DNA from: Gammaproteobacteria bacterium
GTDB lineage: Bacteria > Pseudomonadota > Gammaproteobacteria > JBOHHR01
Length of the DNA stretch: 42,007 nt
Assembly: GCA_050740975.1 (NCBI GenBank)
Contig: JBOIEE010000334.1
Coordinates: 1-42,007, forward strand
Direction of reading: 5' to 3'
In this document: in pieces, positions 11,162 to 37,101 of the stretch
Numbering within the stretch: the first letter of the stretch is position 1
How the letters are laid out: every line of letters starts with the position of its first letter
Notes under the pieces: model-generated
Seen by the model: the letters and a program-made list of their open reading frames with translations, nothing else
Databases searched by the model: none
Told to the model about the DNA's origin: nothing
Translations under genes and position numbers: made by a program

Positions 11162-11178
11162 TGTCGCATGTTCGAATA
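11162..11178. promoter_or_regulatory. Perfect 17-bp palindrome, candidate operator upstream of the barrel gene
   Basis: tgcgacaa-t-ttgtcgca lies 62 nt upstream of the ATG at 11240. No known box is assigned. Confidence 0.3.
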
Positions 11179-11239
11179 TCGCTTGTTCGGTTACACTTCC
11201 CGGCCACCTGAAAATTCCAACACCAAAGAGGTCGAGTCC

Positions 11240-12340: not shown

Positions 12341-12363
12341 CCATACCGGCACCGCACCGTCTG

Positions 12364-16718: not shown

Positions 16719-16735
16719 CTAGCTCAGGAGGCGCA

Positions 16736-17842
16736 ATGGGAAACGTATCCTGGTTTACGTACGAATGTATTTTTGGATCCGTGCACCATCTGAAGGCAAT
16801 TGAATTTATTAATGAGAAGGAGAACCAAAGACTTGAGGGCTTTTACCGGGCACTTCCAAACGTCAGAGCGGAGGTATCTCCCGACGTTTCGAGCGCAATC
16901 GGCCGCTTCTTGACAACGAGTGAGATCTCCCTGGCAGATAACGAACGGCTAGAGCGGTGCTTGGCAGACCTGCTTATGAATAACATGCATCGATATCTTC
17001 GAGAAGAAGGTCCGGTTCTACTCGTGGAGGGACCCCCGCTCTCAAAACTGATTGGGCGCATTGGTTACCGGTACCCGCGCCCCGAAGTGACCATTGCGTT
17101 TGTCACAATTCGACCAGAATACCTACCCCAGCCTGGTGGGGCATCGGTGATGTCGGATGGTTGGAACGGTCCTTTCCCGGGGTTACAGGAAGATACGGTC
17201 CGAAGGACATATTTCCGATACAAACCAATTCCTATACGACTGGACATTTTCGCACAGGGATTGCAACGGTTCCGTCCGCTATGCAAAAAGGGAGGTGTCC
17301 CCATGGGCGTTACAGCAAAACTGAGGGCAATTTCTGAAGATGTCCTAAAGTTCGCGGATTATCTGAATCAGCGAGAGGCCCAAAGCCAGCCGAGATATAT
17401 TGCCGGACAACCGAAGAGGTTCACTCCTGTCGCAGACGAGGGTACGATCAATGAAAACTTAGCGGAGGCAGCGAGAGGTGGCAAGGCCGATGCTAGTAGC
17501 AAGAAGAGGGAACCTCGAACACCCAATCGGTCGACCGATCCATCAGTGGAGCGGGGAAAACGCGACCTCGTCAGGGCCCTCACCTCTGTTCCCGAGGACG
17601 CAATCCTCGATACGATCTTTGACAAAACGGACCGGCACATTAGGAAGGCTAACGGCGACCTGGTTAAGCAGTTTTTGGCAGAGAGGGGACTTGGAACAAT
17701 AGACGAAAAGCAGAACAAACAATTGTTGATATTTGTACAGAAAAGAATTATCGAGGAGCGCAAGGAGCGGCCATATAGATTGACTGTTCAGGACTTGGAA
17801 AGATGGTATGCAGAATTTAAGGGAGACGAGGGACGGAGCTAG
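16736..17842 (+). CDS. Hypothetical protein with no recognisable motif (middle gene of the operon)
   Basis: ATG at 16736 preceded by AGGAGG (16725-16730), 17 nt after the gene 1 stop. 368 aa, with a charged Lys/Arg/Glu-rich C-terminal third. Confidence 0.7.
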   Translation: MGNVSWFTYECIFGSVHHLKAIEFINEKENQRLEGFYRALPNVRAEVSPDVSSAIGRFLTTSEISLADNERLERCLADLLMNNMHRYLREEGPVLLVEGPPLSKLIGRIGYRYPRPEVTIAFVTIRPEYLPQPGGASVMSDGWNGPFPGLQEDTVRRTYFRYKPIPIRLDIFAQGLQRFRPLCKKGGVPMGVTAKLRAISEDVLKFADYLNQREAQSQPRYIAGQPKRFTPVADEGTINENLAEAARGGKADASSKKREPRTPNRSTDPSVERGKRDLVRALTSVPEDAILDTIFDKTDRHIRKANGDLVKQFLAERGLGTIDEKQNKQLLIFVQKRIIEERKERPYRLTVQDLERWYAEFKGDEGRS

Positions 17843-17844
17843 GC

Positions 17845-18732
17845 GTGCGCTATAGAAGCGAGCGAGTGCTAACCTTTTCACGCTATTGGGGTGCGCCACA
17901 CCCTGTCATCGCGATGGAGAGGGCCATCGACGCTGCTTTTCCCGACCTCGACCGAATGCAGCCACCAATCGATCTTCGGAAACTGGGAGAGCGTAGGGGT
18001 ATCAAAGTTGTCGAGCGCCCAATCGACGCTGATGGCCTTATTTTTCGGGCCGAAGATGAAGGATATGTAGTCGTCCTAAACACGCGTGCCCAAGAGGAGC
18101 GGCGGCGTTTTACCCTTGCACATGAGATTGCTCACACTTTTTTCTTTGACGCGGAAGGCTGCCGCGGCTATGAAACTACAGCGAGTCGCGGTGAAGTCAG
18201 ACGCGAGGTTGATCCAGAGGAAGAGCATTTATGCGATTATGGGGCAGCCAAGATCCTAATGCCTAAGGGATTAATCGCGCCGCTGCTCGACACATTTGGG
18301 CCAAGTGCCCATTTTGTTGTTCAGGTCGCGAGAACGTTCAAGGTGTCAATGCGGGCTAGTGCGCGGCATCTGGTTAAGATTAGCGATACAAAGATTGTAG
18401 TGGGATATTGGGAATATCGAGCCTCGCGTGGGCAGTTCGAGACATCGTGGGTAGAGGGGCGAGAGACCGCCAAAGGCAGAAGGGCGATGGCAGTGGGAAA
18501 AGACCAGCCAATATTCGACGACTTCCTAGCAGCGCAGGATTTTCGTGGTAGGAGATGGATGTCTTTGGGAGGGGACCTACAGCATTATTTTGTGGATGCA
18601 GTGTTCCTGAAGGGTACGCCGCGACGATGGCTTACTGAGATTGTGCTTGATCCCATCGCCGAGAGGGGGTTTGTGGGGCGATCGACGCGGATAGCAGGTT
18701 TAAGTGGCGAGGTTCCTGGCCACCTGCGTTAG
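17845..18732 (+). CDS. ImmA/IrrE-family (COG2856, peptidase M78-like) zinc metalloprotease
   Basis: HEIAH (aa 93-97, nt 18121-18135) followed by EEEHLCDYGAAKILMP, the family's third-ligand / FA..LLMP-like motif. GTG start 2 nt after the gene 2 stop (alternative ATG at 17914). I see no HTH domain. Confidence 0.8.
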   Translation: MRYRSERVLTFSRYWGAPHPVIAMERAIDAAFPDLDRMQPPIDLRKLGERRGIKVVERPIDADGLIFRAEDEGYVVVLNTRAQEERRRFTLAHEIAHTFFFDAEGCRGYETTASRGEVRREVDPEEEHLCDYGAAKILMPKGLIAPLLDTFGPSAHFVVQVARTFKVSMRASARHLVKISDTKIVVGYWEYRASRGQFETSWVEGRETAKGRRAMAVGKDQPIFDDFLAAQDFRGRRWMSLGGDLQHYFVDAVFLKGTPRRWLTEIVLDPIAERGFVGRSTRIAGLSGEVPGHLR

Positions 18733-22146: not shown

Positions 22147-23628
22147 ATGCCCCAGAAGAAAAGTCTCATTCTAATCCTATTGACCGGCTCTTTGGCTTTG
22201 TTGATGGCGGGTTGTCCACAGCCACCAGGACCCCCGGAAATAAAGATCACCACGTCCTCGCCGTTGCCGCAGGGCAAGGTGGGGGAACGCTATAAAGCCC
22301 GATTTATGGCGACCGGTGGACAGGCGCCGTATACGTGGTCAGGCGGTCCCCCGGCAGGTTTAGGCTTAAGCCTGAAGGCCGATGGTAAACTAACGGGGAC
22401 ACCCACAAAGGCGGGTAGCTTTAAGTTTGACGTCAAGGTGACCGACTACGCGAATCGGTCTGTCACGAAGAACTTCCAGCTCAAAGTCAAGGTCGTCGAT
22501 GGCCGTTGTGCGATCACGACCACCTCTTCGTTGCCCAACGGGACGGTAGGGCAGACTTATGGGCCGGTCACCCTGCAGGCGAGTAGTGGTTGCAAACCTC
22601 CGCTGACCTGGTCGGTGGGCGCGGGGGCACTGCCTCCGGGCTTAACGCTGAACGCCCAAAGCGGTGTCATCGGTGGAACGCCCACTCAGGCGGGCACCTT
22701 CAACTTTACCATCAAGGTGACCGACAGCACCGGACAATCTGACACTAATGGCTTGCAGATCACAATTACCACAAACGGCCCGGAGTGTGAGATCGCGACC
22801 TCCTTGCTGCCGAACGGGACGGTGAACCAGTCTTATCCGGCGGTAACGCTGCAGACGAGGAATTGCACGCCACCGCTGACCTGGTCGGTGAGCGCAGGGG
22901 CCCTGCCTCCGGGCTTAAGGTTGAACGCCCAAGCCGGGGTTATCGACGGGACCCCAAGTCAGGCGGACACCTTCAACTTTGCCGTCAGGGTGAGCAGCGC
23001 AGGCCAGTTGGACACCCAAGACCTCCAGATCACGATAGGGCCGCCGGTCGCGGTTTGTGAGATCACGACCACCTCACCCTTGCCTGACGGGAGGGTAAAC
23101 CAGCCTTACCCGCCGCAAACCTTGCGCACGACGGGTTGCACGGCGCCGCTGACCTGGTCGGTGAGTGCGGGGGCACTGCCTCCGGGCTTAAACCTGAACG
23201 CACAAACGGGTGTCATCGGCGGCACAGCCACTGGGGACGGCACCTTCAACTTTACCGTTAGGGTGACCGACAGCGCGAGTCCGGCCCAGTCCGACACCGA
23301 AGGCTTTCGGATTGTGATCGAAGGTCGGGTATGTGGAACCCATACGGTAAGTATGAATAATCTTCAATTTATACCGCGCACATTGACCGTAAGGGCTTGT
23401 GAGACAGTGAATTGGGTGCATAATCAACCGGGTGTTCCCCATACTGTGACAAGTGATACCGGCGTATTCGAAAATGGAACAGTGGCTAATCCTATGGTGT
23501 TCCAGCAAACCTTCTCTCATACCTTTGCTAACCCTGGGACATTCCCCTATCACTGTAGGATCCATGGGGCGCCAGGTGGAAATCCAGCCCTAATGACCGG
23601 AAGTATCACGGTAAATCCTAATCCGTAG
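22147..23628 (+). CDS. Lipoprotein with four Ig-like (He_PIG/cadherin-like) repeats and a C-terminal type-1 copper cupredoxin domain
   Basis: Signal and lipobox LALLMAGC. Repeats carry LP.G.V.Q.Y....L...G...PLTWS...GALPPGL.LN...G.I.GTP...GTFNF...VTDS. C-terminal HTVTSD...YHCRIHG...........M gives the His/Cys/His/Met ligand set. Confidence 0.8.
   Translation: MPQKKSLILILLTGSLALLMAGCPQPPGPPEIKITTSSPLPQGKVGERYKARFMATGGQAPYTWSGGPPAGLGLSLKADGKLTGTPTKAGSFKFDVKVTDYANRSVTKNFQLKVKVVDGRCAITTTSSLPNGTVGQTYGPVTLQASSGCKPPLTWSVGAGALPPGLTLNAQSGVIGGTPTQAGTFNFTIKVTDSTGQSDTNGLQITITTNGPECEIATSLLPNGTVNQSYPAVTLQTRNCTPPLTWSVSAGALPPGLRLNAQAGVIDGTPSQADTFNFAVRVSSAGQLDTQDLQITIGPPVAVCEITTTSPLPDGRVNQPYPPQTLRTTGCTAPLTWSVSAGALPPGLNLNAQTGVIGGTATGDGTFNFTVRVTDSASPAQSDTEGFRIVIEGRVCGTHTVSMNNLQFIPRTLTVRACETVNWVHNQPGVPHTVTSDTGVFENGTVANPMVFQQTFSHTFANPGTFPYHCRIHGAPGGNPALMTGSITVNPNP
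22492..23328 (+). repeat. Three tandem ~93-codon intragenic repeats, conserved at the DNA level
   Basis: The core ccgctgacctggtcggtg occurs at 22600, 22873 and 23146 (spacing 273 and 273 nt), each followed by the near-identical g.gc.gggg.c.ctgcctccgggcttaa. Confidence 0.8.
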
Positions 23629-23797
23629 AAAACGGTGTAGCGGTTATCCAGGGTCCACTTGCAGGGTGAAGGTCTTATGATCCCTATGCGGTGGACCCTG
23701 GAACGCCGGCCCAGTTAGAACGGGAAGAGAAGAGGCACCAGTGCCCCTGACACTAAAAGAGGGTTTGCCTGTGCATCTTGCAAAGAGGAGGGAAATA

Positions 23798-26700
23798 ATG
23801 GAGAGAGGGTCATCTAGAGAACGCAATCGCGGCATCGGCATGGGTCTAAACTTTATCGTTGCCGCTTTTGTTGTCTGGAATACCGGAGGTCAGGCAGGCG
23901 TTCCACCTGATGTCGCGGGGGTGAGATCTACTGCCTCCTCGCAGGCCACCGCCCCCGCGGATCCCTGCAGAGACGAAAATAGACATGATTGGCGCCACTA
24001 CCACGTCTCTGCCATCGATGTAAAGATGGTATTAAACCGCTTCGGTGACCGTGATGACGATGCCTTCATGTACGTACTCGATGAAAAAAGAAAGAAGATT
24101 GAAGACTGGCAAAACCAGCCCGGCTGCACGAGCTGGAATAAACCCGGTGAACACAAGTCCTGCGTCACGACGGGTTTGCGCGACGACCTGGTCCAGCCCC
24201 TGGTTCTGCGTGCGAACCTGGGGCAGTGCCTGGTCATCCATTTCACCAATCGTTTGGAGGTGGATAAGTTCCTCGATCCGAATAAAACCCTGGATCGGAC
24301 CTCGGGGCGTAAGTGGCCCGTCGATCGTGTTGATCGCAAGCCTGACGGCCAGCCGATCAGCAAGGCCGCGCTCCAGATCAGCGGGTTGATATACTCGGTA
24401 GAAAAAGACGGTAAACCGGTCACCCGTGCTATCGATACATTTGCCGCCGAGAACGAAACGATCCTCTATAAGGTCCCGCTACCAAGCGACCCGGCTGCGG
24501 AGCGAGCCTACTATTTTCACGATGGAGGAGGCAACCGCCAGCGGGTGCCTCATGGTTTATTCGGTGTCATCGCGGCCGAACCGGCAGGATCCAAATACCT
24601 GGATCCGAAAACTGGTTATCTCTCAGACGGTACCGGTTGGGAGGCAATCATCGACGTTCTTCCAAAGCAGCGCGATTTCCGCGAGTTTGTTATCATCTAC
24701 CACGAGGTCGGTGATGAAAACTACGACAGGATCGTTGATGGAACGAAATATCCAGGGCCGCAAAACCCAGACGATATCTTCTTACCGCAGCTTACCCCCA
24801 GTAGCTTTGCTCCGCTGGAACAAACTTACCGGCCGGCGGGGAGGGCGCTCAACTACCGCAGTGAACCCTTCCTCCACCGGCTGGCCATCAACGGTGATCC
24901 AAATAACAGCGATCTCACGGTATCTCCGTTCGCCCAAAAAAAGGCCCTGGCTTATAGCTCCTACACCTTCGGCGATCCGGCCACCCCGATCCCGCGTTCT
25001 TATCTCGGAGAGCCCACCAAGACCCGCCTGGTGCACGGCGGCAGCGAGGTGTTTCACGTGCATCATCTGCACGGGGGTGGCGACCGCTGGCGACGAAACC
25101 CTAGATCTGATCCCAACAACGACATCAGCTCGGGCTTGAATAAGCGCCCGCTGCAGAATGTCTTTTCCACCCATCTCGATTCCCAAACCATAGGCCCAGG
25201 CACCAGCTATAACCTCGAGCACGAATGCGGTGCCGGGGGCTGCCAGCGGGCCGCTGGCGATTTTCTTTACCACTGCCACATTGGACACCACTACATCGGC
25301 GGCATGTGGGGGCTGTGGCGCGTCTTTGATACCTGGCAGCACGATCTGGCAAAACTCCCCGATATGCCCGATCCACCGAAGGCCGTGGATTCCACTCAAT
25401 TGATCGGCAAGACCTTTGAGGGAAAAACCGTGGTGCTCAAAGCCGATCCCAACGATCCGGATCAGATCAGCTTAAAAAAATGGGTTGAAGAGCAATTACC
25501 ACCCCCGGGCATACCGATTGATAATGAGGATGCTACCGTCTGGTTTTGGAGTGTAGAGGATCGAAAGGGTCTACCCCTTTATTTGGGGGAACCGGAGATC
25601 ACTCAAGAAGAAAAGTGGGCGAATTATGAGTCCCCTCACCCGGGGGAGCGCCTCCCCATCCGCTTTAATCCCATCAACGGCCGTTACGCTTGGCCGTTGT
25701 TCCGGCCCCATCTAGGCCAGCGGCCTCCCTTCGCGCCCAACGGACACTCCGGCGCACCTTGGCTGGGCGAGCAGGGTTCGGAGGAGCGCCGGGACGGGCT
25801 CTGCCCCGATCCGAAAGTGTGGGGTATTCCACACCAAAGGATTCGCCATTACCCAATTTCCGCGGTCCCTGTAGATATTCCCCGGATGGACATTCCCGAT
25901 AACGAGGTAGGGAATATCGATAGAGATGGGAAGATATTTGTCTTGAACGAAGACATACGCGGCGAAACGCACGAAGGAAAGGTTCTTTTGCCTAAGTCAA
26001 AAAACATAGAGCCTCTGGTCGTCCGCTCCAATGTAGGCGACTGTGTGCGGATCATTTTTTCCAATAGATTGAAGGACACCTTCGATGCTGTCAGTGCAAA
26101 GTTGACCACCTTGTCGAAGGTCAACATGCACACCCATTTTGTCCAGTTCGACCCGCAAGCCTCTGATGGAGTGATTACCGGGTTCTCCTATGAACAGTCG
26201 GTGCGCCCGTATAGCACTGAGACACCGCCAGGGGCGAAACAAGGACGCCGACTCGTGGCTAATACCGCGCCCGGAGCGCAAGCGATCATTGTCGATCAGG
26301 CACATAGGTTGAGGACGAATGGTCAGGCAAGGAAAGGCGTGTGGATCGGAATCGGCCTCGGGGAAGGGGTGTTGGACACACGTAACTCCTGCTGCGCTCC
26401 AAAGCCGGGTGGCCTGGTCCCGCGTACCGAGATCCGCCGTATTGAGGACATTGCTGCCTTGAATGATGGCACCTTCAAAATAATACTGGATCGACCGCTC
26501 GACTTGCCCCACGAAGCGGGTGAGGCCGTCGGTGTGGAATTCGTGCAGTATCTCTGGTATTCGGACGTTGATACGGGCACGGTGTTCTGGCACGATCACG
26601 TGGATTTTAAATCCTGGGGCCACGGGCTTGCTTCCGCCCATGTGATCGAACCGGGATCGTCTACCTGGCACGACCCTAAGACAGGTAAACCCGTTCGCAG

Positions 26701-28474
26701 CGGGGCCATCGCCGATATCCGCACACCCGCGGAGTCCTCCATAGGGGCTGGACAAAAAGGCAGCTTCCGCGAGTTTGTGCTGTTTAACATTAAAGACCAA
26801 TTATTTGGGGATTTTTTCGGGGAACGTAAGGCGACCATCAACCTGCGGGCCGAGCCGATCGATGCGGATCCCAACAATAGCACCCCGGAGCGCGATCGAA
26901 ACGGCCCCCCCGCCTATTGGTTCTCCTCGGTCAAACACGGTGATCCTGCAACCCCCATCCCGCGGGCCTACGTCGGTGATCCCTTTGTGGTTCGTCACCT
27001 GGGGGTGCTAGACCGGGAGGGCGGGATCCGCATCACCGGGCATCGCTTTCGCCTGGAGCGTTTTGCCCCCGAGGGTAAGTTCTCCGACGGTTCCCCGATG
27101 GGGATCTCAGAGCGCTATGATCTCGTGCTCGATGGGGGTGCCGGAGGTCCCTTGGGCAAGCCCGGTGATTATCTTTACTACAACACCCTGGGCCGCGATA
27201 TGTTGGGCGGAGCTTGGGGCTTGATCCGAGTCCATGACACGTGGCAGGAGGACTTAAAGCCCTTGCGCGATAGATCCCCCCCTCCGCGAGGCAACGGTTT
27301 TCCGAGCCAGACCGCGGCAAATTCGGGCGCGCGCGGAAACATCCCCGATCGGGCCGTGGACTCAGGGAACCCCTGTCCCGCGGTTGCCCCAGAAAGAGTC
27401 TATCAGATCCATCTCAGGGAGACTGAGATCTTGCAGCAAAGCCGCTTGAAAGACCTGCAAGACACGCGCGCCCGCGAAGCCTTGACCATCAAACAGGGGA
27501 TCGTCTACAGCCTGCGTGGGCAGCCTGCCGATTACAGCATTGAGCCTTTAGTGCTTCGCGTCAATCACGGGGAATGCCTTAAGATCGATCTGCACAATGA
27601 TCTTTGCTTGCCGCAGCAGCCGTGCACAGACCGCGATCTTAAACGCGCCAGCCTGCATGTGGGTGAACTGCTTTTCGATCCCCAAGGTTCACAGGGTGCG
27701 GCCATCGGCCTGAATCTGGATTCGACGGTAGCGCCGGGTGAGAAGCGGGTCTACCGCTACTTCGCCGATCAGGAACTGGGAACAACCATTGCCTTTAATC
27801 TCGCCAATCCGCCACAGGCAGGAAAAGGCGCGTTCGCGGCGGTGATCGTAGAGCCGAAAGGTTCGCAATACCGAGATATCGCGAATGGCAAACCGATCGA
27901 GACAGGGGTATTGGCCGATATTGTCAGCCCAACCCAAAGCTTCCGCGAGATCGTCACCCTCTTCCATGATAGTGATCCGTTCCTAGGTCAGAATTTCATG
28001 CTTTACCCCTGGGAGGCCCACTGTAGTCCCGGGGGCGCTCCCTCAGGGTGTAGCAGAGACCGCGGAAGTTTCAGGGGGATGTTCACCTCGATCAGCTATA
28101 AGCTGAATCCCTGGTGGATGCGGGAGGATCAAACAGCCCCCGCAGAGGTATACAGCGTGGATCGCCACGGCGATCCAGGTCTGGTGGTCAAGGGTACGGC
28201 AGGTTCACCCCTGATGTTCCGGGTGGCCGCACCGTGGGCAGAGCAGTTGCACACCTTTAGCCTGTCGGGTCACCGCTGGCCACTGGAGCCGGGCATGCAC
28301 AATTCCGAACAGGTATTCGCCCACGGGCTCGCCCCCGGATACTCGTTTGATGTGCCTATTATCGGCGGCTTTGGCGGGGAGTATGGAAAGACCGGTGATT
28401 TTCTCTTCTTCGACGCCCGCATGCCCTTTACCCAGGCCGGTTTGTGGGGATTTATTCGCGTTGAATCGAAGTAG
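23798..28474 (+). CDS. Very large (~1558 aa) multi-domain multicopper oxidase-like protein
   Basis: Copper motifs: HVHHLHG (25055-25072), HCHIGHHYIGGM (25271-25306), HTH (26129-26137), WHDH (26588-26599). N-terminal hydrophobic segment GLNFIVAAFVVW. ATG at 23798 follows AAGAGGAGGG. Confidence 0.85.
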   Translation: MERGSSRERNRGIGMGLNFIVAAFVVWNTGGQAGVPPDVAGVRSTASSQATAPADPCRDENRHDWRHYHVSAIDVKMVLNRFGDRDDDAFMYVLDEKRKKIEDWQNQPGCTSWNKPGEHKSCVTTGLRDDLVQPLVLRANLGQCLVIHFTNRLEVDKFLDPNKTLDRTSGRKWPVDRVDRKPDGQPISKAALQISGLIYSVEKDGKPVTRAIDTFAAENETILYKVPLPSDPAAERAYYFHDGGGNRQRVPHGLFGVIAAEPAGSKYLDPKTGYLSDGTGWEAIIDVLPKQRDFREFVIIYHEVGDENYDRIVDGTKYPGPQNPDDIFLPQLTPSSFAPLEQTYRPAGRALNYRSEPFLHRLAINGDPNNSDLTVSPFAQKKALAYSSYTFGDPATPIPRSYLGEPTKTRLVHGGSEVFHVHHLHGGGDRWRRNPRSDPNNDISSGLNKRPLQNVFSTHLDSQTIGPGTSYNLEHECGAGGCQRAAGDFLYHCHIGHHYIGGMWGLWRVFDTWQHDLAKLPDMPDPPKAVDSTQLIGKTFEGKTVVLKADPNDPDQISLKKWVEEQLPPPGIPIDNEDATVWFWSVEDRKGLPLYLGEPEITQEEKWANYESPHPGERLPIRFNPINGRYAWPLFRPHLGQRPPFAPNGHSGAPWLGEQGSEERRDGLCPDPKVWGIPHQRIRHYPISAVPVDIPRMDIPDNEVGNIDRDGKIFVLNEDIRGETHEGKVLLPKSKNIEPLVVRSNVGDCVRIIFSNRLKDTFDAVSAKLTTLSKVNMHTHFVQFDPQASDGVITGFSYEQSVRPYSTETPPGAKQGRRLVANTAPGAQAIIVDQAHRLRTNGQARKGVWIGIGLGEGVLDTRNSCCAPKPGGLVPRTEIRRIEDIAALNDGTFKIILDRPLDLPHEAGEAVGVEFVQYLWYSDVDTGTVFWHDHVDFKSWGHGLASAHVIEPGSSTWHDPKTGKPVRSGAIADIRTPAESSIGAGQKGSFREFVLFNIKDQLFGDFFGERKATINLRAEPIDADPNNSTPERDRNGPPAYWFSSVKHGDPATPIPRAYVGDPFVVRHLGVLDREGGIRITGHRFRLERFAPEGKFSDGSPMGISERYDLVLDGGAGGPLGKPGDYLYYNTLGRDMLGGAWGLIRVHDTWQEDLKPLRDRSPPPRGNGFPSQTAANSGARGNIPDRAVDSGNPCPAVAPERVYQIHLRETEILQQSRLKDLQDTRAREALTIKQGIVYSLRGQPADYSIEPLVLRVNHGECLKIDLHNDLCLPQQPCTDRDLKRASLHVGELLFDPQGSQGAAIGLNLDSTVAPGEKRVYRYFADQELGTTIAFNLANPPQAGKGAFAAVIVEPKGSQYRDIANGKPIETGVLADIVSPTQSFREIVTLFHDSDPFLGQNFMLYPWEAHCSPGGAPSGCSRDRGSFRGMFTSISYKLNPWWMREDQTAPAEVYSVDRHGDPGLVVKGTAGSPLMFRVAAPWAEQLHTFSLSGHRWPLEPGMHNSEQVFAHGLAPGYSFDVPIIGGFGGEYGKTGDFLFFDARMPFTQAGLWGFIRVESK

Positions 28475-28482
28475 ATGCCCTG

Positions 28483-30123
28483 ATGACGGCTAAAGCGATA
28501 GGCCTACCAAGGCAAAGAACGGCAAGGGGACAGATGTATCGGGTAGGAGCCGTAACGATGATGGCCTGCGCGCTTGGCATGGGTGATGGCCGGTCGGAAG
28601 AAAACTGTGATGATACTCCATTGACGCAGGCCACGCCCGAGGCAATCCGATCCTGCTTAAAGTACAGCTCGCGCGAAGCCCGTTTGGCTGCGCCCTATGC
28701 GCTACCGCAGAGTGTACGGGAGGAACGGACCAAAGCGCTAAAGGCAGCGCTGGCGGCTGCCATGCCTGCAGCCCAGTTAAAGAAAACGGCTTATCCAGGC
28801 GGTGTCTATGTCTATACCACCGCGGTACCTGAGTTAAAGGAAGGAGCCCCGCGCGGCAAGATCACCTACCCGCTCTACAAAGGAACCCTCGGTGCCTCGA
28901 ACGGTAAGGCGGTGCATTTTATTCTGTCTGACGCCTCCGATCGGGAGTTCGCGGAGGCATTTGGGATCACGCACGCGACTCGATTAGCGAATGTAAACGA
29001 ACAGGGTATCGAGGGTGGGTCCACCCTGAGCGGAGAGGGAAAATGGGTATTCCCCCGCGATCCGGGTTGGGTCGCCCACATCGACTCAAGCGGTCAGGTA
29101 CGAACAGGGAAGGAAAACCCCGACTATTCGCCCTTAAAAAGCCTCCTATGGAAGGACCGCACCGTCATCGTCAATGCTCCCTTTGTCACATGGGGTGAGG
29201 GCCCGGGCCAACAATTGATCATCGATAAAGGGGGCTGTGATCCCTTGATACGGCGGAGCCCGCCGAGTCGCCTGCGCGTCGGTGGAAGGCCCGATGCAGG
29301 CGGAGGACCCGAGGGATGTGAACGGGAAGGGCAGAAGAACCCGCTCAATCGCTACCGGGGCGGACAAGCGCTGGAGATCCGGCTACTGAACGACGACTGC
29401 CAGTCCGCCAAACCGTGGAAGCCCTGTGGTTGGGTAACCATGAAGCTGCATCAGACCGTCCACAGGGAGGACATCTATCCCTATCTGGCTGTGTTTTCTG
29501 CTAGCGAGGCGGACATCGCCGAGGAGTTGGGCGTGCCTCATACCCCAAAGCTCGCCTACGCTGGGCGCTCGCACGCGAGCCCGCCCCTCGGTTTGTCCGG
29601 GGATCCCGGAGGGAATGAGGGAGTCAGCGCTATCGTGGAATTTCATAACGGCGTGGAGACCTGGGCGGGGGGGCCGGCGGGTTTCCAAGCGGGTGTCATC
29701 AGCTATGGCGAACCGACCTGGAGCACCTACAGCCCGATCGTGCATGTCACCTGGGCCTTCTTCGACTGCGGGGGCGCGAAGCAGCTTTTCCCCAAGGATC
29801 GCAACGAATCGTTCGGGGTCCTACCGCAGGCTGGTATCGAGGGCTTCGATCCCAACCAAGCCCGGAGCTTTAACCCTTATCTCATGACCTATTGGAACAT
29901 AGCCTGCCCGGAGCTGGCCGCAAGATTGGCCGGCAGATCGCAGGGTATCGTATACGTGAACCGGCTGTCAGAGCTGTGGGTCGCGGGGGATCTCGTGATC
30001 ACCGAATCACCGGCGGGCTGGGTGGTGAACGCCATGCAAGGCGATTATCCGCTCCCCGACCATGCGTCCAAGATGCATCTCGTGCTCGACGCCCCGGCTC
30101 CCGTAGCCGTCATCCGACGGTGA
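28483..30123 (+). CDS. Hypothetical protein, possibly a lipoprotein, internally duplicated
   Basis: Starts 9 nt after the MCO stop. Possible short signal MYRVGAVTMMAC if it starts at 28534. Two related segments: FILSDASDREFAEAFGITHATRLA and AVFSASEADIAEELGVPHTPKLA. No family recognised. Confidence 0.55.
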   Translation: MTAKAIGLPRQRTARGQMYRVGAVTMMACALGMGDGRSEENCDDTPLTQATPEAIRSCLKYSSREARLAAPYALPQSVREERTKALKAALAAAMPAAQLKKTAYPGGVYVYTTAVPELKEGAPRGKITYPLYKGTLGASNGKAVHFILSDASDREFAEAFGITHATRLANVNEQGIEGGSTLSGEGKWVFPRDPGWVAHIDSSGQVRTGKENPDYSPLKSLLWKDRTVIVNAPFVTWGEGPGQQLIIDKGGCDPLIRRSPPSRLRVGGRPDAGGGPEGCEREGQKNPLNRYRGGQALEIRLLNDDCQSAKPWKPCGWVTMKLHQTVHREDIYPYLAVFSASEADIAEELGVPHTPKLAYAGRSHASPPLGLSGDPGGNEGVSAIVEFHNGVETWAGGPAGFQAGVISYGEPTWSTYSPIVHVTWAFFDCGGAKQLFPKDRNESFGVLPQAGIEGFDPNQARSFNPYLMTYWNIACPELAARLAGRSQGIVYVNRLSELWVAGDLVITESPAGWVVNAMQGDYPLPDHASKMHLVLDAPAPVAVIRR

Positions 30124-30143
30124 ACGCCGTGGCAGGTACCCTG

Positions 30144-30662
30144 ATGGATAGGCGGTGGAGGGTAGGGGCCGTCCTGGTTCTGGGGCTCGAAGCCGCAGGG
30201 TTGACGGCATGGGCAGCCAGCACGATTACGCCCGGGGCATCCGTGGCTGGTTTTGGGATGCGGATCGAAGGGATTGCCTGGGTTAAAGACCATATGGAGC
30301 ACAGCGACAGGTTCCCTATGCCGCCGAGCATGATGCCGGATATGCCTGCGCATGGACATGCTCGCCTGAGCATAGAGATCACCATTTACAATGAGGGAGG
30401 GGAACGACAGCTATTCCAGGCATCAGAGCTGCAACTGCGCTCCTCAGCGGGGCGCAACTGGCTGCCCTCCTCCACCACGGTAGAATCAATGGTATTGTCC
30501 ACCGGACAATTCGCGCACCTATTCCTGAATTTCGATGTGCCGGCTATAAGGGAAGAGAAGCTTCAGTTGATATGGCACCGGCGTGGAACAGAACGGGCCA
30601 TGATCGCAGTCCCTTCGCCAGGCGATTTCCATGGGCATCACGCGAGTGGACATCCCGATTGA
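30144..30662 (+). CDS. Small membrane-anchored protein with Met/His-rich motifs (putative periplasmic copper-binding protein)
   Basis: TM/signal VGAVLVLGLEAAGLTAWAAS, then DHMEHSDRFPMPPSMMPDMPAHGH and a C-terminal FHGHHASGH. I chose the ATG at 30144 within track ORF 29892-30662 (the upstream part overlaps the previous gene). Confidence 0.5.
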   Translation: MDRRWRVGAVLVLGLEAAGLTAWAASTITPGASVAGFGMRIEGIAWVKDHMEHSDRFPMPPSMMPDMPAHGHARLSIEITIYNEGGERQLFQASELQLRSSAGRNWLPSSTTVESMVLSTGQFAHLFLNFDVPAIREEKLQLIWHRRGTERAMIAVPSPGDFHGHHASGHPD

Positions 30663-30702
30663 AGAGACTATTTCTCACTAAACCTGGAGATATTGGCAGG
30701 CT

Positions 30703-31893
30703 ATGGTGACCAAAAGAAACCCTAGCTTGGGGTTTTTTGCAGCGGGTTTTTGTGCCTTATTGGTTGGTTGTCCAACCTCTCTCCCCCCTGCCCCAGAGAT
30801 TACGTCCGCTTCCCGCTTGCCGAATGCCAAAGTGGGCAGGCCTTATTCGGTGAGCCTAAAGGCAAGAGGCGGTGAAGGGCTATTGAGCTGGTCGGGTATA
30901 CCGCCGGCCGGTTTAAAGCTGACACCAGAGTCGGGTCAGATCACGGGCTCGCCCGATCACGAAGGGAACTTTCGCTTCAAGGTGTCAGTGAAAGACAGCA
31001 GCACGCCGGCCCGATCGGACAGCGAAATCTTCGCACTTACGATAAGCCCTAATGTTCCCCTGGCGATCGCCACAACCTCGCCCCTTCCAAGCGCGGGGAT
31101 AAACCAGTCCTATTCAAAGATCCTTGAAGCGATCGGCGCAGAGGGAAAACTGAGTTGGTCCTCAACTAATCTTACGGATGAGGATGACTTCACTCTAAAT
31201 CAACGCACAGGCGCTATGGAAGGGACCCCGAAGAGAACCGGCACGTTTACCTTCGACGTCAAGGTCACCGACAGCGCTAACCAGTGTGCCACCAAACGCT
31301 TTGTACTTGGGATATTGGACATTCTAACCGCCTCGCCGCTGCCGGCGGCGACCGAGGGACAGGACTACGCCCCGGTTATCCTCCAAGCGGCGGGCGGAAA
31401 CCCGCCGCTTAGGTGGGCGGGCGGACCCCCAGCAAACTTAACCCTGGATCCAGAAACGGGCGAGATACACGGTATACCGGTTGCGGATGGCGACATTAGC
31501 TTTGCTGTGAAGGTGACCGACAGCTCAACCCCACCGCGGTCTGTAACTAAAACCTTTCAACTAACCGTCCGGCCAAAGCAACCCGGGGGGGTCTGTACAA
31601 CGCACAGCGTAACTATGGATAATTTTGAATTCACACCTAAGACTTTAACTATAAAGGCCTGTGATACGGTGAAATGGGAACATAAACAGGGCGTACCCGA
31701 TGGGACCGAGCATACGGTGACCAGCGATGGCGGAGCGTTTGACAGTCGTGGGGGCAATGCTGCCGCGCGCATGTCGTTAGGGCAGGCCTTCTCCCATACT
31801 TTCGCTGCTACGGGGTCCTTCCCCTATCACTGTGTAGTCCATGGGAGCTCGGGCGGGGGTGGAATGAGCGGCACCATCAGCGTCACTCCGTAA
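30703..31893 (+). CDS. Second Ig-repeat / cupredoxin lipoprotein (paralogue of 22147-23628)
   Basis: Lipobox ALLVGC. Three to four Ig-like repeats (LP.A.VG.PYS..L.A.GG...LSWS..PPAGL.L....G.I.G.P...G.F.F.V.V.DS). C-terminal HTVTSD..YHCVVHGSSGGGGM type-1 Cu ligand set. Confidence 0.8.
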   Translation: MVTKRNPSLGFFAAGFCALLVGCPTSLPPAPEITSASRLPNAKVGRPYSVSLKARGGEGLLSWSGIPPAGLKLTPESGQITGSPDHEGNFRFKVSVKDSSTPARSDSEIFALTISPNVPLAIATTSPLPSAGINQSYSKILEAIGAEGKLSWSSTNLTDEDDFTLNQRTGAMEGTPKRTGTFTFDVKVTDSANQCATKRFVLGILDILTASPLPAATEGQDYAPVILQAAGGNPPLRWAGGPPANLTLDPETGEIHGIPVADGDISFAVKVTDSSTPPRSVTKTFQLTVRPKQPGGVCTTHSVTMDNFEFTPKTLTIKACDTVKWEHKQGVPDGTEHTVTSDGGAFDSRGGNAAARMSLGQAFSHTFAATGSFPYHCVVHGSSGGGGMSGTISVTP

Positions 31894-34851: not shown

Positions 34852-35673
34852 TCAAACGAAGATCCCCAGGATAACGCTTGAAGCCTTGAAGATGGCCGTC
34901 GCTCTCTTTCCTTCAGCCAAGCCAAGTGACTTCAAGCTGTCAAGCGTTATGGTGGCCGCGATCGCGCCTCCACCATCGAGGTCGAGAACCACTTCGGCAT
35001 TCACCGCTCCGGGCGTGACTCCGGCAACTGTTCCCTTAAGCTGATTGCGGGCAGACAGATGCATGTCGTCGGTGTCGGTGGCTATGATGACCGATGACGA
35101 CTTCACCAATGCGAACGCCGTCGTATTGATGCGCAAACCTAGGGATTCGGAGCTTTCCCGCGTCACGATGGCCACCAGCTTTCCACCGCCGGGAAGCGTC
35201 AGCCCCACTTCGTCATTGACGGCACCGGCGCGGATGGCGGTGACCGTTCCCATGAACTGGTTGCGGGCGCTGGTCTTCATGTTCAAGGTCCTCAGAAGGT
35301 TCATGTCGTCTCCGAGGTTGATCGCCTCATCGCTCAGCAACTGCACGAACCTGCGGTGTATGGCTTCGACCTGCGCGAATCGCTGAACAAGCTGTTTTCC
35401 TCGCTCCGTGAGGCGCGTGGAGCCTCCGCCACGACCGCCGGTACTGCGCTCGACTAAAGGCTCACCGGCCAGGTTATTCATGGTATCCACGGCTTCCCAG
35501 GCGGCTTTGTAGCTCATTCCAATCGCCTTGGCGGCCTGGGTGATAGAGCCGCGCTCGGCGACGGCGCGTAGAAGCCCGGTCCGCCCTTTGCCCCCGAGGT
35601 TGTCGCCGCCAACGGTCATCCATATGGTCCCATCCAGCTCGATGGGTCTGCTCTTCTTGCGCGTATTACCCAT
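34852..35673 (-). CDS. modE: Molybdate-responsive transcriptional regulator ModE (HTH plus two Mop/TOBE domains)
   Basis: GSITQAAKAIGMSYKAAWEAVDTMNNL...PLV.R..GG.GGGST.LT..G, plus two SARNQ..G.V......AVN.EV.L.L repeats. Confidence 0.9.
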   Translation of the reverse strand: MGNTRKKSRPIELDGTIWMTVGGDNLGGKGRTGLLRAVAERGSITQAAKAIGMSYKAAWEAVDTMNNLAGEPLVERSTGGRGGGSTRLTERGKQLVQRFAQVEAIHRRFVQLLSDEAINLGDDMNLLRTLNMKTSARNQFMGTVTAIRAGAVNDEVGLTLPGGGKLVAIVTRESSESLGLRINTTAFALVKSSSVIIATDTDDMHLSARNQLKGTVAGVTPGAVNAEVVLDLDGGGAIAATITLDSLKSLGLAEGKRATAIFKASSVILGIFV

Positions 35674-36418
35674 CGATACACGCCAGGCTTTCGTTCGGCA
35701 CTGAGGCAGCCAGAGTGACGACCATCTCGGATGCTGGGGTCAGGTCGACTACACGCCCCTCTTCCAGGTGTACGACTTCTTCCGCGAAATACGACACATC
35801 GTCTTCGTCGTGGGTGATCAAGAGTACCGGAATGTCCAAGTGCTGCTGCAAGTCGCGGAGTCCATCCCGTAATCGGTGCCGCAGCGTCTTGTCGAGTGCG
35901 GCAAAGGGTTCGTCCAGCAGCAAGGCCCTAGGCTGAGTAACCAGCGCTCGTGCGAGCGCCGTGCGCTGACGTTGTCCCCCGGAGAGTTGCTCTGGGAAGT
36001 GCCTCTCGATGGGTTCAAGACCGAATGCCCCGATCCAGCGATCAACGGCTTCATTCACCATGTCGCATGGCGGATTGCGCCAGCCGAGCCTCAGCCCAAA
36101 CGCAATGTTCTGTCGCACGGTCAGGTGCGGAAACAGCGCGTAGTCCTGAAAGACGTAGCCCAACCGGCGATCCTGGGCCGCAAGGTCGATCCCGGTCCCG
36201 TGGTCAAAGACCACTTCTCCGGCCAGGCTCACACGGCCACGATCCGGTCTGGCCAACCCCGCGATCATCTTGAGCGTTTGGGTTTTGCCCGCGCCAGAGG
36301 GTCCGAACAGCACTAGGCGCTGCGATGGACTCTCAAAACACACCTTGAGATCAAACCGGGTCTTCGCGTGTTCGAAACGCTTTGAAACGTCGATATCCCA
36401 AATTAACGCGCTCTCCAT
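35666..36418 (-). CDS. modC: Molybdate ABC transporter ATP-binding protein (short form without C-terminal TOBE domain)
   Basis: Walker A GPSGAGKT, signature LSGGQRQR, Walker B LLLDEPFAALD. 250 aa. An 8-nt overlap with the modE start and a 1-nt overlap with the modB stop. Confidence 0.85.
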   Translation of the reverse strand: MESALIWDIDVSKRFEHAKTRFDLKVCFESPSQRLVLFGPSGAGKTQTLKMIAGLARPDRGRVSLAGEVVFDHGTGIDLAAQDRRLGYVFQDYALFPHLTVRQNIAFGLRLGWRNPPCDMVNEAVDRWIGAFGLEPIERHFPEQLSGGQRQRTALARALVTQPRALLLDEPFAALDKTLRHRLRDGLRDLQQHLDIPVLLITHDEDDVSYFAEEVVHLEEGRVVDLTPASEMVVTLAASVPNESLACIDG

Positions 36419-37098: not shown

Positions 37099-37101
37099 CC
37101 C

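What the first reader, a model, noticed from the sequence alone, without database searches (positions are those of the whole stretch)
22147..31893. Five-gene extracytoplasmic copper-protein cluster: a giant multicopper oxidase bracketed by two Ig-repeat cupredoxin lipoproteins
Seen: five co-directional genes separated by intergenic gaps of 8 to 169 nt. In order they are: lipoprotein 1 (four Ig-like repeats plus a type-1 Cu domain); a ~1558-aa MCO; a 546-aa internally duplicated protein of unknown family, starting 9 nt after the MCO stop; a 172-aa membrane-anchored Met/His-rich protein; and lipoprotein 2 (a paralogue of lipoprotein 1). Established: very large MCOs (MnxG, MofA, MoxA types) are linked to Mn(II) oxidation. 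CopA/PcoA-type MCOs with Met/His-rich partners are linked to copper detoxification. Cupredoxins are single-electron shuttles. Inference: this is a cell-surface or periplasmic metal-oxidation or electron-transfer module in which tethered cupredoxins on long Ig-repeat stalks could deliver or accept electrons. I do not recognise this gene combination as a described operon type.
Basis: partly seen in the sequence, partly recalled or inferred. Interest (0 to 1): 0.7.

Follow-up and report, generated by a model that had tools for sequence, protein, structure and literature searches.

The report
MnxG-type copper oxidase cluster with tethered cupredoxins
An uncultured gammaproteobacterium has a conserved five-gene cluster for an exported giant copper oxidase related to the manganese oxidase MnxG, its two family-specific helper proteins and two lipid-anchored blue-copper electron carriers; this is a copper-only variation on gene clusters already described for metal-oxidising bacteria.

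Summary
Five co-directional genes lie at 22147-31893, with gaps of 169, 8, 20 and 40 nt, and all five proteins have N-terminal export signals by inspection. The 1558-aa oxidase is a homologue of Bacillus MnxG (PDB 9bxa, E 1.4e-86). It has one complete copper centre. It is not an MnxG equivalog and not CopA-like. It belongs to a very large, mostly unannotated family.

Gene 3 (DUF7482) is fused to the oxidase in other lineages. Gene 4 is a DUF4352-fold beta-sandwich with a conserved MPxSMMPGxP motif. It is the most widespread neighbour of this oxidase family (64 of 83 loci).

In sister clusters the gene-4 homologue carries a c-type haem domain and sits beside the copper chaperones SCO1 and PCuAC. 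That matches the described MofA/OmpB cluster type. In the window's clade gene 4 has no haem, and two paralogous lipoproteins carry type-1 copper domains on Ig-repeat stalks. Gene order is kept in all six related contigs.

Best reading: an exported metal oxidase, most likely acting on Mn(II), in which cupredoxins replace the cytochrome c partner. Substrate and direction of electron flow are inferred, not shown. It is a new variant of a known kind, of moderate interest.

The parts
22147..23628 (+). g1: lipoprotein with four He_PIG Ig-like domains and a C-terminal type-1 copper (amicyanin/plastocyanin-like) domain
   Evidence: Pfam He_PIG E 1.6e-45 with 4 stretches; Copper-bind 30.6 bits against a cut-off of 21.2. 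PDB amicyanin E 2.3e-9, with His, Cys and His aligned. Lipobox LLMAGC followed by Pro at +2, and GGAGG 8 nt before the ATG.
23647..23702 (+). Intercistronic stem-loop between g1 and the oxidase gene (12-nt perfect arms, no U tract)
   Evidence: the 169-nt spacer folds at -63.3 kcal/mol, z -2.4. The same arms occur in L092, and hairpins of different sequence sit at the same position in L001 and L002. Its function is inferred: mRNA stabilisation or partial attenuation.
23798..28474 (+). g2: exported six-cupredoxin-domain multicopper oxidase, 1558 aa (the ORF opens at GTG 23741)
   Evidence: PDB 9bxa MnxG E 1.4e-86, six aligned stretches. NCBIfam MnxG 121 bits against a cut-off of 3100. Motifs in ORF numbering from GTG 23741: HxxHxH 439-444, HCHxxxHxxxxM 511-522, HTH 797-799, WHDH 951-953. 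The two later GD[FY]L[FY] repeats (1142, 1552) lack Cu ligands. Invariant ligands in an 18-sequence alignment. Sec-type signal MGLNFIVAAFVVW..GQA/G. SD GAGGAGG before ATG 23798.
28483..30123 (+). g3: exported DUF7482 protein, internally duplicated; a dedicated partner of the oxidase (alternative start 28534)
   Evidence: PF24298 36.7 bits against a cut-off of 27.5. 19 homologues, most carrying PF24298. The same domain forms the C-terminus of fused oxidases P0009 (38% identity, E 3e-88) and P0012 (42%, E 2e-85). It directly follows the oxidase in L002, L083, L085, L086 and L087. Duplication: hhalign 92.6%. AF2 model is poor (pLDDT 50) and gives no fold match.
30144..30662 (+). g4: small exported or anchored Met/His-motif beta-sandwich protein (DUF4352 fold), haem-less form of a family that elsewhere carries a C-terminal cytochrome c domain
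   Evidence: AF2 core pLDDT about 85-91. Foldseek hits 5bxg, 3cfu (YjhA) and 4r4g at E 3e-5 to 2e-4. Conserved DHMEH..PMPxSMMPDMP motif and C-terminal His. An HMM finds it in 34 of 80 GTDB oxidase loci. With the homologous cluster-1 family (hhalign 97.3%) it is present in 64 of 83 loci. 42 of 150 family representatives have CxxCH. The homologues in L083, L086, L087 and L088 have CxxCH; the window clade has none.
30703..31893 (+). g5: lipoprotein with three He_PIG Ig-like domains and a C-terminal type-1 copper domain; paralogue of g1
   Evidence: Pfam He_PIG E 2.1e-26 with 3 stretches; Copper-bind 29.0 bits against a cut-off of 21.2. 41% identity to g1, E 1e-75. Lipobox LLVGC followed by Pro. 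Ligands HTV..YHCVVH..M. Orthologues sit at the same position in L085 and L091.

Best explanation
The five genes form one conserved cluster, probably an operon, for an extracytoplasmic copper-dependent oxidase system of the MnxG / MofA-OmpB kind.

Shown:
- g2 is a Sec-exported six-domain multicopper oxidase homologous to the Mn(II) oxidase MnxG. It has a single complete type-1 plus trinuclear copper centre, built between domain 2 and the following domains.
- g3 (DUF7482) and g4 (a Met/His-motif beta-sandwich) are partners specific to this oxidase family. g3 is fused to the oxidase in other lineages. g4 is the commonest neighbour of the family.
- g1 and g5 are paralogous lipoproteins that hold a type-1 copper domain on three or four Ig repeats.

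Inferred mechanism:
- The oxidase is exported unfolded and receives copper in the periplasm. In sister clusters this job falls to SCO1 plus PCuAC. Here the MPxSMMPDMP/His motif of g4 is the likely Cu(I) donor or a copper-binding subunit.
- The oxidase, with g3 and g4 bound, takes single electrons from a metal ion at its type-1 site and reduces O2 to water. Mn(II) is the most likely substrate, by homology and by association.
- The tethered cupredoxins do the job that the C-terminal cytochrome c domain of the g4 homologue does in sister lineages. They act as a one-electron relay between the oxidase and other redox partners at the outer membrane.

In short, this is an all-copper variant of the MCO + MofC-like cytochrome + copper-chaperone cluster.
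For: - Homology to MnxG across six domains. All MCO copper ligands are present and invariant in the family.
- The family is very large: more than 2342 proteins and more than 534 GTDB species.
- Gene order is kept in L001, L002, L085, L091 and L092.
- g3 is fused to the oxidase in P0009 and P0012.
- The g4 superfamily is found in 64 of 83 oxidase loci.
- Composition of sister loci: L086 has MCO, DUF7482, g4-cytochrome c, PCuAC, SCO1. L087 has MCO, DUF7482, g4-cytochrome c. L088 has an MCO::DUF7482 fusion, SCO1, PCuAC, g4-cytochrome c. L083 has MCO, DUF7482, SCO1, g4-cytochrome c. The published MofA/OmpB clusters have the same theme (PMC5566968, PMC8218464).
- In my sample, loss of the haem domain together with flanking cupredoxin lipoproteins is seen only in the window clade. 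Even the He_PIG proteins of L001 and L002 that Pfam misses end in C-x2-H-x3/4-M copper motifs.
- In L002 the upstream cupredoxin hangs on a Thr/Pro linker instead of Ig repeats, so the tether varies while the copper domain is kept.
- The cupredoxin domains align to amicyanin with their ligands conserved.
- Link to Mn: MopA-like animal haem peroxidases with RTX repeats sit beside family members in 9 actinobacterial loci. BaMnxG needs small copper-binding accessory subunits (PMC5622069).
- All five proteins have export signals.
Against: - No member of this particular oxidase clade has been assayed. Identity to BaMnxG is low (phmmer 294 bits over 1558 aa), and the NCBIfam MnxG equivalog threshold is missed by far (121 against 3100).
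- An MCO does not need an external electron carrier to turn over, so the role of the cupredoxins or cytochrome c is unclear.
- Most g4 family members (103 of 150) are haem-less, and many such loci show no flanking cupredoxin (for example Streptomyces L090). The relay is therefore not universal, and the 'replacement' rests on what is probably one evolutionary event.
- Copper binding by g4 is inferred from motifs only. Its fold relatives have no known function.
- The function of g3 is unknown, and it has no conserved metal-ligand cluster.
- Co-transcription was not tested. The promoter and terminator scans were at background level.
- Similarity to MofA, MofC and OmpB themselves could not be tested here.
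Confidence: 0.55

Rival explanations
1. Copper homeostasis or detoxification module. The oxidase oxidises periplasmic Cu(I) as CueO, CopA or PcoA do. g4 (Met/His-rich) and the cupredoxin-like lipoproteins bind and buffer copper, as CopI-type cupredoxins do.
For: Met/His motif in g4. CopC-CopD fusions lie next to 15 actinobacterial family members, and a YcnI protein lies nearby in Streptomyces. Copper chaperones are present in sister loci. OmpR-type regulators are present in 21 loci.
Against: The oxidase is not CopA, PcoA or CueO-like; no such NCBIfam or Pfam family match was found. The window has no CopB/C/D, Cus or CopRS genes. CopCD, SCO1 and PCuAC are equally explained as copper supply for a copper-hungry enzyme. 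The oxidase lacks a Met-rich insert of its own. The cupredoxin domains have complete type-1 redox sites.
Confidence: 0.15
2. Respiratory or lithotrophic electron-transfer module, in one of two forms. In the first, the oxidase is a terminal oxidase whose physiological substrates are the reduced cupredoxins (cytochrome c in sister lineages). In the second, electrons taken from Mn(II) or Fe(II) are passed from the oxidase to the cupredoxins and on to the respiratory chain for energy conservation.
For: A dedicated one-electron carrier (cytochrome c domain or cupredoxin) is genetically coupled to the oxidase in several lineages. Brouwers et al. proposed that MofC carries electrons during Mn oxidation (cited in PMC5566968). 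MCO-derived Mn(II) electrons entering a chain were proposed for Georhizobium (PMC11708043). A conserved hairpin after g1 suggests a higher carrier-to-enzyme ratio.
Against: No bc1, oxidase, porin or quinone-linked genes lie in the window. The intact trinuclear site argues that electrons go to O2 within the enzyme. Most family members have no carrier nearby.
Confidence: 0.15
3. Oxidase for organic or polymeric substrates at the cell surface (laccase-like phenol oxidation, pigment or matrix cross-linking), with the Ig-repeat lipoproteins serving as surface scaffolds.
For: The Ig (He_PIG) repeats are typical of surface proteins. A tyrosinase lies next to the betaproteobacterial homologue L067. 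Two-domain laccases are weak PDB hits for one domain.
Against: Laccase similarity is limited to the copper motifs (E about 5e-5). The whole protein aligns to MnxG. The neighbours found across the family are copper-handling proteins and redox carriers, not polymer or pigment genes.
Confidence: 0.08
4. The five genes are adjacent by chance and do not work together.
For: Co-transcription was not shown, and the promoter and terminator scans were uninformative.
Against: The order is kept in six related contigs. There are g3-oxidase fusions. g4 is found in 64 of 83 loci.
Confidence: 0.02

Closest known systems
Bacillus sp. PL-12 Mnx complex (MnxG with MnxE3F3; PDB 9bxa; PMC5622069)
   Same: The catalytic subunit is a homologous six-domain MCO with the same copper motifs at the aligned positions. 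The enzyme depends on small co-encoded, copper-binding accessory proteins. It is the best characterised Mn(II) oxidase.
   Different: Similarity is only distant: 294 bits, and about 27-28% identity to Bacillus/Priestia-type genes. g3 and g4 show no sequence similarity to any PDB chain, so none to any MnxE/F chain that PDB may hold. The host is Gram-negative and the proteins are exported by Sec and the lipoprotein pathway, rather than being in a spore coat. MnxG has no cupredoxin lipoproteins.
mofABC operon of Leptothrix discophora / Rubrivivax and the ompB cluster of Geobacter sulfurreducens (MCO + MofC-like cytochrome c + SCO1/SenC chaperone; PMC5566968, PMC8218464)
   Same: [quoted passage not shown] Sister loci of the window clade have this composition.
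   Different: The window has no cytochrome c, no SCO1/PCuAC and no MofB (FKBP). Instead it has a haem-less g4 and two type-1 copper lipoproteins.
Pseudomonas putida GB-1 mnxG operon (NCBIfam NF041487)
   Same: A large MnxG-type MCO in a multigene operon that includes an SCO-family protein, in a gammaproteobacterium (PMC8218464).
   Different: The score is 121 bits against the equivalog cut-off of 3100. The accessory genes differ (ABC transporter, lactonase-fold protein, SurA-like protein).
CopA/PcoA-type copper-resistance MCOs with CopB/C/D or PcoC/E
   Same: A periplasmic MCO together with Met/His-rich copper-binding partners.
   Different: Those are three-domain enzymes of a different family, with no NCBIfam or Pfam match here. 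No CopB/C/D genes lie in the window.
Lipid-tethered cupredoxins such as Neisseria Laz, and soluble amicyanin (comparison with Laz is from my own knowledge)
   Same: A type-1 copper domain with His/Cys/His/Met ligands acts as a one-electron carrier. The domain aligns to amicyanin at E 2.3e-9. The lipoprotein anchor keeps it at the membrane.
   Different: Here the copper domain sits at the C-terminus of three or four He_PIG Ig repeats. The Cys-His-Met ligand loop is unusually long (C-x2-H-x9-M in g1, C-x2-H-x7-M in g5). The genes bracket an MCO rather than a dehydrogenase or nitrite reductase.

Membership tests
Multicopper oxidase (catalytically competent) | Four copper-binding motifs giving one type-1 site (His, Cys, His, Met) and a trinuclear cluster (eight His) | tested here: met
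   HxxHxH 439-444, HCHxxxHxxxxM 511-522, HTH 797-799 and WHDH 951-953. All are invariant in 18 family members and aligned to the MnxG motifs.
MnxG (NCBIfam NF041487 equivalog, Pseudomonas type) | Score above the curated whole-protein cut-off (3100 bits) | tested here: not met
   121 bits, E 2.3e-35.
MnxG superfamily (six-domain MnxG-like MCOs) | Homology to solved MnxG over all domain pairs | tested here: met
   PDB 9bxa_A, E 1.4e-86, six aligned stretches covering query 85-1575. Three GD[FY]L[FY]..W-G-x-x-R-V repeat ends at 506, 1142 and 1552.
Bacillus Mnx complex | Co-encoded MnxE and MnxF accessory subunits | tested here: not met
   g3 and g4 have no significant PDB sequence match. Different accessory proteins occupy the cluster.
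Mn(II) oxidase (function) | Demonstrated Mn(II) to Mn(III/IV) oxidation | not testable with these tools
   Indirect only: homology to MnxG, the JGI label 'manganese oxidase' on some homologues, and MopA-like peroxidases next to 9 family loci.
MofA/OmpB-type cluster | MCO clustered with a MofC-like cytochrome c protein and an SCO1/SenC-type copper chaperone | tested here: not met
   The window has no CxxCH protein and no SCO1 or PCuAC. The sister loci L083, L086, L087 and L088 do.
MofA/OmpB-type cluster | Sequence orthology of the oxidase to MofA or OmpB, and of g4 to the non-haem part of MofC or GSU1397 | not testable with these tools
A plasmid search with a g4-cytochrome c homologue found nothing.
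CopA/PcoA/CueO copper-resistance MCO | Match to the family models, and CopB/C/D or Cus neighbours | tested here: not met
   No such NCBIfam or Pfam hit at E<=0.01. The flanks encode an amidohydrolase, a metallo-beta-lactamase-fold protein, a LysR regulator, a dehydrogenase and ModE/ABC.
Type-1 (blue) cupredoxin, plastocyanin/amicyanin family | PF00127 above the gathering score, and His...Cys-x2-His...Met ligands | tested here: met
   g1 30.6 bits and g5 29.0 bits against a cut-off of 21.2. Amicyanin alignment has His, Cys and His matched. A Met lies 9 (g1) or 7 (g5) residues after the second His.
Bacterial lipoprotein | Signal peptide ending in a lipobox [LVI][ASTVI][GAS]C | tested here: inconclusive
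   By eye: g1 LLMAG-C, g5 LLVG-C, each after a hydrophobic stretch. No LipoP or SignalP was available. g1 has Met at position -3.
DUF7482 (PF24298) | Score above the gathering threshold | tested here: met
   36.7 bits against 27.5, but only 44 of the 257 profile positions are matched. 17 of 19 homologues carry precomputed PF24298 hits.
DUF4352-fold beta-sandwich (PF11611) | Fold match or Pfam match | tested here: inconclusive
   Foldseek top hits are DUF4352-type structures, including 3cfu, 4r4g and 4les, at E 6e-5 to 1.2e-3 but with TM only 0.44-0.54. The window protein has no Pfam hit. Homologues score 13-26 bits around the 25.9 cut-off.

The most novel reading that the evidence does not exclude
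The tethered cupredoxins (and the cytochrome c domains in sister lineages) are the physiological electron acceptors of the oxidase. The cluster would then be a copper-only extracytoplasmic module that feeds electrons from Mn(II) or Fe(II) oxidation into the respiratory chain. That would be a lithotrophic, energy-conserving metal-oxidation pathway based on an MCO rather than on Cyc2 or porin-cytochrome complexes, found in an uncultured gammaproteobacterium. The DUF7482 and g4 proteins would be obligatory subunits of a new type of MCO holoenzyme.
Probability: 0.1. Interest if true: 0.85.

Novelty: new variant of a known kind. Interest (0 to 1): 0.45.

Why it matters
Giant MnxG/MofA-type oxidases are the main candidates for bacterial manganese oxide formation, yet only the Bacillus enzyme is understood biochemically. 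That enzyme works only with small copper-binding partner subunits.

This analysis points to two conserved partners for a much larger, largely unannotated branch of the family, found in Acidobacteriota, Chloroflexota, Actinomycetota and some Proteobacteria:
- a DUF7482 protein that is sometimes fused to the oxidase;
- a Met-motif beta-sandwich protein that often carries a c-type haem.

If these are needed for activity, that would suggest a reason why such oxidases might be hard to express in active form, and it gives a defined set of genes to co-express.

The window's clade offers a natural experiment in which haem is exchanged for blue copper. This bears on an old, unresolved question raised for MofC: why does an O2-reducing oxidase keep a dedicated one-electron carrier?

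Tried and rejected
- Structure of g3: the AF2 model built from a 20-sequence alignment was poor (pLDDT 50; only residues 112-250 reach about 80). Foldseek against PDB gave nothing below E 1. No fold assignment is possible.
- PDB sequence searches with g3 and g4 gave no meaningful hits. No link to MnxE/F can be made.
- Promoter and terminator scans gave counts equal to shuffled sequence and are uninformative.
- Rfam search of 20.5-33.5 kb at E<=1 found no Mn (yybP-ykoY) riboswitch or any other RNA family.
- The word-indexed homologue search with g4 found only 6 close relatives. The wider family came from tblastn and HMM searches of fetched loci and from the exhaustive HMMER search.
- A g3 HMM found no DUF7482 gene in the 80 GTDB loci. 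DUF7482 is restricted to the sub-clade closest to the window (oxidase identity 47% or more).
- A plasmid search with a g4-cytochrome c homologue found no match. I could not reach annotated mofC-like genes or the MofA, OmpB and PpMnxG reference sequences, so no reference phylogeny was built.
- The metagenome scan with g5 added only two syntenic loci. The other hits were cupredoxin domains in unrelated contexts, for example next to narGHJ in L094. The copper domain type itself is therefore generic.
- CopA-type copper resistance was considered and rejected as the primary reading (see rivals).

Full report
**What is there**

The window is a 42-kb contig of an uncultured 'Gammaproteobacteria bacterium' MAG. 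Cluster-mates of its housekeeping proteins carry that name, and the cluster proteins are annotated only as hypothetical or 'putative Ig domain-containing'.

Five + strand ORFs occupy 22147-31893. The oxidase most likely starts at ATG 23798 (GAGGAGG Shine-Dalgarno; relatives are 1555-1557 aa), giving 1558 aa. g3 may start at 28534 rather than 28483. The deposited annotation starts g4 at GTG 30120. A 218-nt AT-rich spacer precedes g1 and 329 nt follow g5. The flanks are unrelated housekeeping or regulatory genes: an amidohydrolase, a metallo-beta-lactamase-fold protein, a LysR regulator, a 2-hydroxyacid dehydrogenase and ModE/molybdate ABC.

**The oxidase (g2)**

Pfam sees only a weak Cu-oxidase_3 match. 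The protein nevertheless aligns to the solved Bacillus MnxG structure chain (9bxa_A) at E 1.4e-86, in six stretches that cover the whole protein.

It carries one full set of MCO motifs: HxxHxH 439-444, HCHxxxHxxxxM 511-522, HTH 797-799 and WHDH 951-953. The two later copies of the GD[FY]L[FY]...WGxxRV repeat, at 1142 and 1552, have lost the ligands. It is therefore a six-domain enzyme with one type-1/trinuclear centre, formed between domain 2 and the following domains. The ligands are invariant in an 18-sequence alignment.

It scores 121 bits against the NCBIfam MnxG equivalog cut-off of 3100. No CopA or CueO model matches. It is thus a distant member of the MnxG superfamily and not an 'ordinary CopA'.

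The family is very large. More than 2342 proteins pass E 1e-3 among the 8000 candidates scored, and more than 534 GTDB species genomes encode one. These are mostly Acidobacteriota, Chloroflexota and Actinomycetota. Annotations are 'multicopper oxidase domain-containing', 'hypothetical' or, in JGI, 'manganese oxidase'. A Streptomyces plasmid copy is annotated 'hypothetical protein' in RefSeq.

The window clade has a simple Sec-type signal (…GMGLNFIVAAFVVW…GQA/G). More distant homologues have a long multi-helix N-terminal extension.

**The conserved partners (g3 and g4)**

g3 is a DUF7482 protein with a weakly supported internal duplication (hhalign 92.6%, E 4.6e-7 over 51 columns). In P0009 and P0012 the same domain pair forms the C-terminus of the oxidase itself (38-42% identity over about 400-470 residues, E 3e-88 and 2e-85). 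In L002, L083, L085, L086 and L087 it is the gene directly after the oxidase. That gene fusion makes it a dedicated partner. Its fold and function remain unknown.

g4 is a small protein with an N-terminal hydrophobic signal or anchor, a strictly conserved DHMEH…PMPxSMMPDMPxHG segment, a beta-sandwich core and a His-rich tail. The AF2 core is confident (pLDDT about 85-91). It resembles DUF4352-type sandwiches of unknown function (3cfu, 5bxg, 4r4g).

An HMM of g4 finds it within 10 kb of the oxidase in 34 of the 80 GTDB loci. A second neighbour family (motif GMxHG, same topology and HxH tail) is homologous to it (hhalign 97.3%, E 2.4e-11). Together they occur in 64 of 83 loci, many of which are truncated contigs. 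The MPxxMMPGxP motif and the terminal HxH are kept across phyla.

An exhaustive HMMER search found 189 representative clusters. Among the best 150, 42 carry a C-terminal CxxCH (42 of the 47 long forms), and all 103 short forms are haem-less. Pfam confirms a cytochrome c domain in the acidobacterial and Chloroflexota versions.

**The lineage-specific part (g1 and g5)**

Both proteins have lipoboxes. They have four and three He_PIG Ig domains respectively, and a C-terminal PF00127 domain above threshold. They are paralogues (41% identity, E 1e-75). The copper domain aligns to amicyanin (E 2.3e-9) with the His, Cys and His ligands matched, and a Met lies in an extended loop.

Related contigs keep the arrangement as far as they extend:
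- L092: g1, MCO, g3.
- L001: He_PIG protein, MCO, g3.
- L002: cupredoxin lipoprotein, MCO, g3, g4, He_PIG protein.
- L085: MCO, g3, g4, g5.
- L091: g3, g4, g5.
- An 11-kb NCBI contig: g3, g4, g5.

The He_PIG proteins of L001 and L002 that Pfam does not flag as copper proteins still end in …HGV…C-x2-H-x3/4-M. The upstream L002 protein is a lipoprotein in which a Thr/Pro-rich linker replaces the Ig stalk. The constant feature is therefore a lipid-tethered type-1 copper domain on each side of the oxidase.

Relatives of the cupredoxin domain alone occur in unrelated contexts, so the domain type is generic.

**Comparison with sister clusters and the literature**

The nearest DUF7482-containing lineages (oxidase identity 47-53%) have these compositions:
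- L086: MCO, DUF7482, g4-like, PCuAC, SCO1.
- L087: MCO, DUF7482, g4-like.
- L088/L089: MCO::DUF7482 fusion, SCO1, PCuAC, g4-like.
- L083: MCO, DUF7482, SCO1, g4-like.

In all four the g4 homologue has a CxxCH haem domain. The window, L002 and L085 homologues have none.

[quoted passage not shown] The window clade therefore looks like a variant of a described cluster type in which the haem carrier has been exchanged for tethered blue-copper carriers and the classical chaperones are absent.

I could not reach the MofA, MofC or OmpB sequences. Orthology to them is a lead, not a result.

**Function**

Steps that are shown: homology to a Mn(II) oxidase, an intact copper centre, export signals, dedicated partners, and type-1 copper carriers.

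Steps that are inferred:
- Mn(II) as substrate. Support comes from MnxG homology and from MopA-like animal haem peroxidases with RTX repeats beside nine actinobacterial family members.
- Periplasmic copper loading through the g4 motif. This is by analogy with the SCO1/PCuAC neighbours and with the copper-binding MnxE/F subunits that BaMnxG requires (PMC5622069).
- Cupredoxins as a one-electron relay.

Caveats:
- An MCO needs no external carrier.
- Most g4 family members are haem-less, and many of their loci show no flanking cupredoxin (for example Streptomyces L090).
- The haem-for-copper exchange probably reflects a single evolutionary event.

The rivals (copper detoxification, a terminal-oxidase or lithotrophic electron chain, organic substrates) are not excluded and are scored separately.

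**Regulatory detail**

No Rfam family, including the Mn riboswitch, matches in or around the cluster. The promoter and terminator scans are at background level.

A strong stem-loop without a U tract sits between g1 and the oxidase gene (23647-23702; spacer z -2.4). The same arms occur in L092, and hairpins of different sequence occupy the same position in L001 and L002. This is consistent with an intercistronic element that sets the carrier-to-enzyme transcript ratio. That reading is an inference.

**Verdict**

It overstates the novelty of the operon type and overlooks that genes 3 and 4 are the conserved core. It is a new variant of a known kind, and interest is moderate at 0.45. It would be higher if the cupredoxins prove to divert metal-derived electrons into respiration.

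Noticed in passing
window 13926-18732: Low-GC island (GC 0.49-0.51 against 0.56-0.61 around it). It encodes a 930-aa HD-domain protein, a 390-aa protein with no family match and a 295-aa M78 peptidase that matches PADLOC capP (E 5.8e-23). It may be a horizontally acquired defence or regulatory module. The two large proteins have no PADLOC match.
   Followed up: partly
window 23647-23702; L092 499-558; L001 3557-3596; L002 1805-1833: A stem-loop without a U tract sits between the upstream cupredoxin gene and the oxidase gene in all four loci where that junction is available. The sequence is conserved only between the window and L092.
   Followed up: partly
L008, L026, L034, L044, L047, L054, L077, L080, L082 (for example L077 1-5259): Very large animal-haem-peroxidase proteins with RTX and FN3 repeats (MopA-like) lie next to the actinobacterial homologues of the oxidase. 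Two kinds of putative Mn oxidase are thus co-located.
   Followed up: partly
15 actinobacterial loci (for example L082 6823-8712; L090 12679-14418): A CopC-CopD fusion protein lies next to the oxidase. A YcnI-family protein lies nearby in the Streptomyces plasmid. OmpR-type response regulators are present in 21 loci. FGE-sulfatase-like proteins are present in 13 loci, nearly all acidobacterial.
   Followed up: no
P0007-P0100 N-termini (homologues at about 50% identity): Most distant homologues of the oxidase begin with a 100-200-aa stretch of several hydrophobic helices, some with His-rich segments. The window clade has only a signal peptide, which implies a membrane-embedded form of the enzyme elsewhere.
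   Followed up: no
L067 1038-2540: A tyrosinase with PPC domains lies directly upstream of the betaproteobacterial homologue of the oxidase.
   Followed up: no
window 28483 vs 28534; 30120 vs 30144: The start codons of g3 and g4 are ambiguous. The internal ATG 28534 has the better Shine-Dalgarno sequence. Close relatives of g3 are annotated 25-26 residues shorter, from a start that would remove the signal peptide and is probably wrong.
   Followed up: partly
window 34852-37845 (- strand): A ModE-like regulator (HTH_1 plus two TOBE domains) with an ABC ATPase, a permease and a periplasmic binding protein. It is a molybdate uptake locus unrelated to the finding.
   Followed up: no
window 11168-13572: Two adjacent + strand ORFs of 390 and 402 aa have no family assignment apart from a sub-threshold BNR-like hit.
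   Followed up: no
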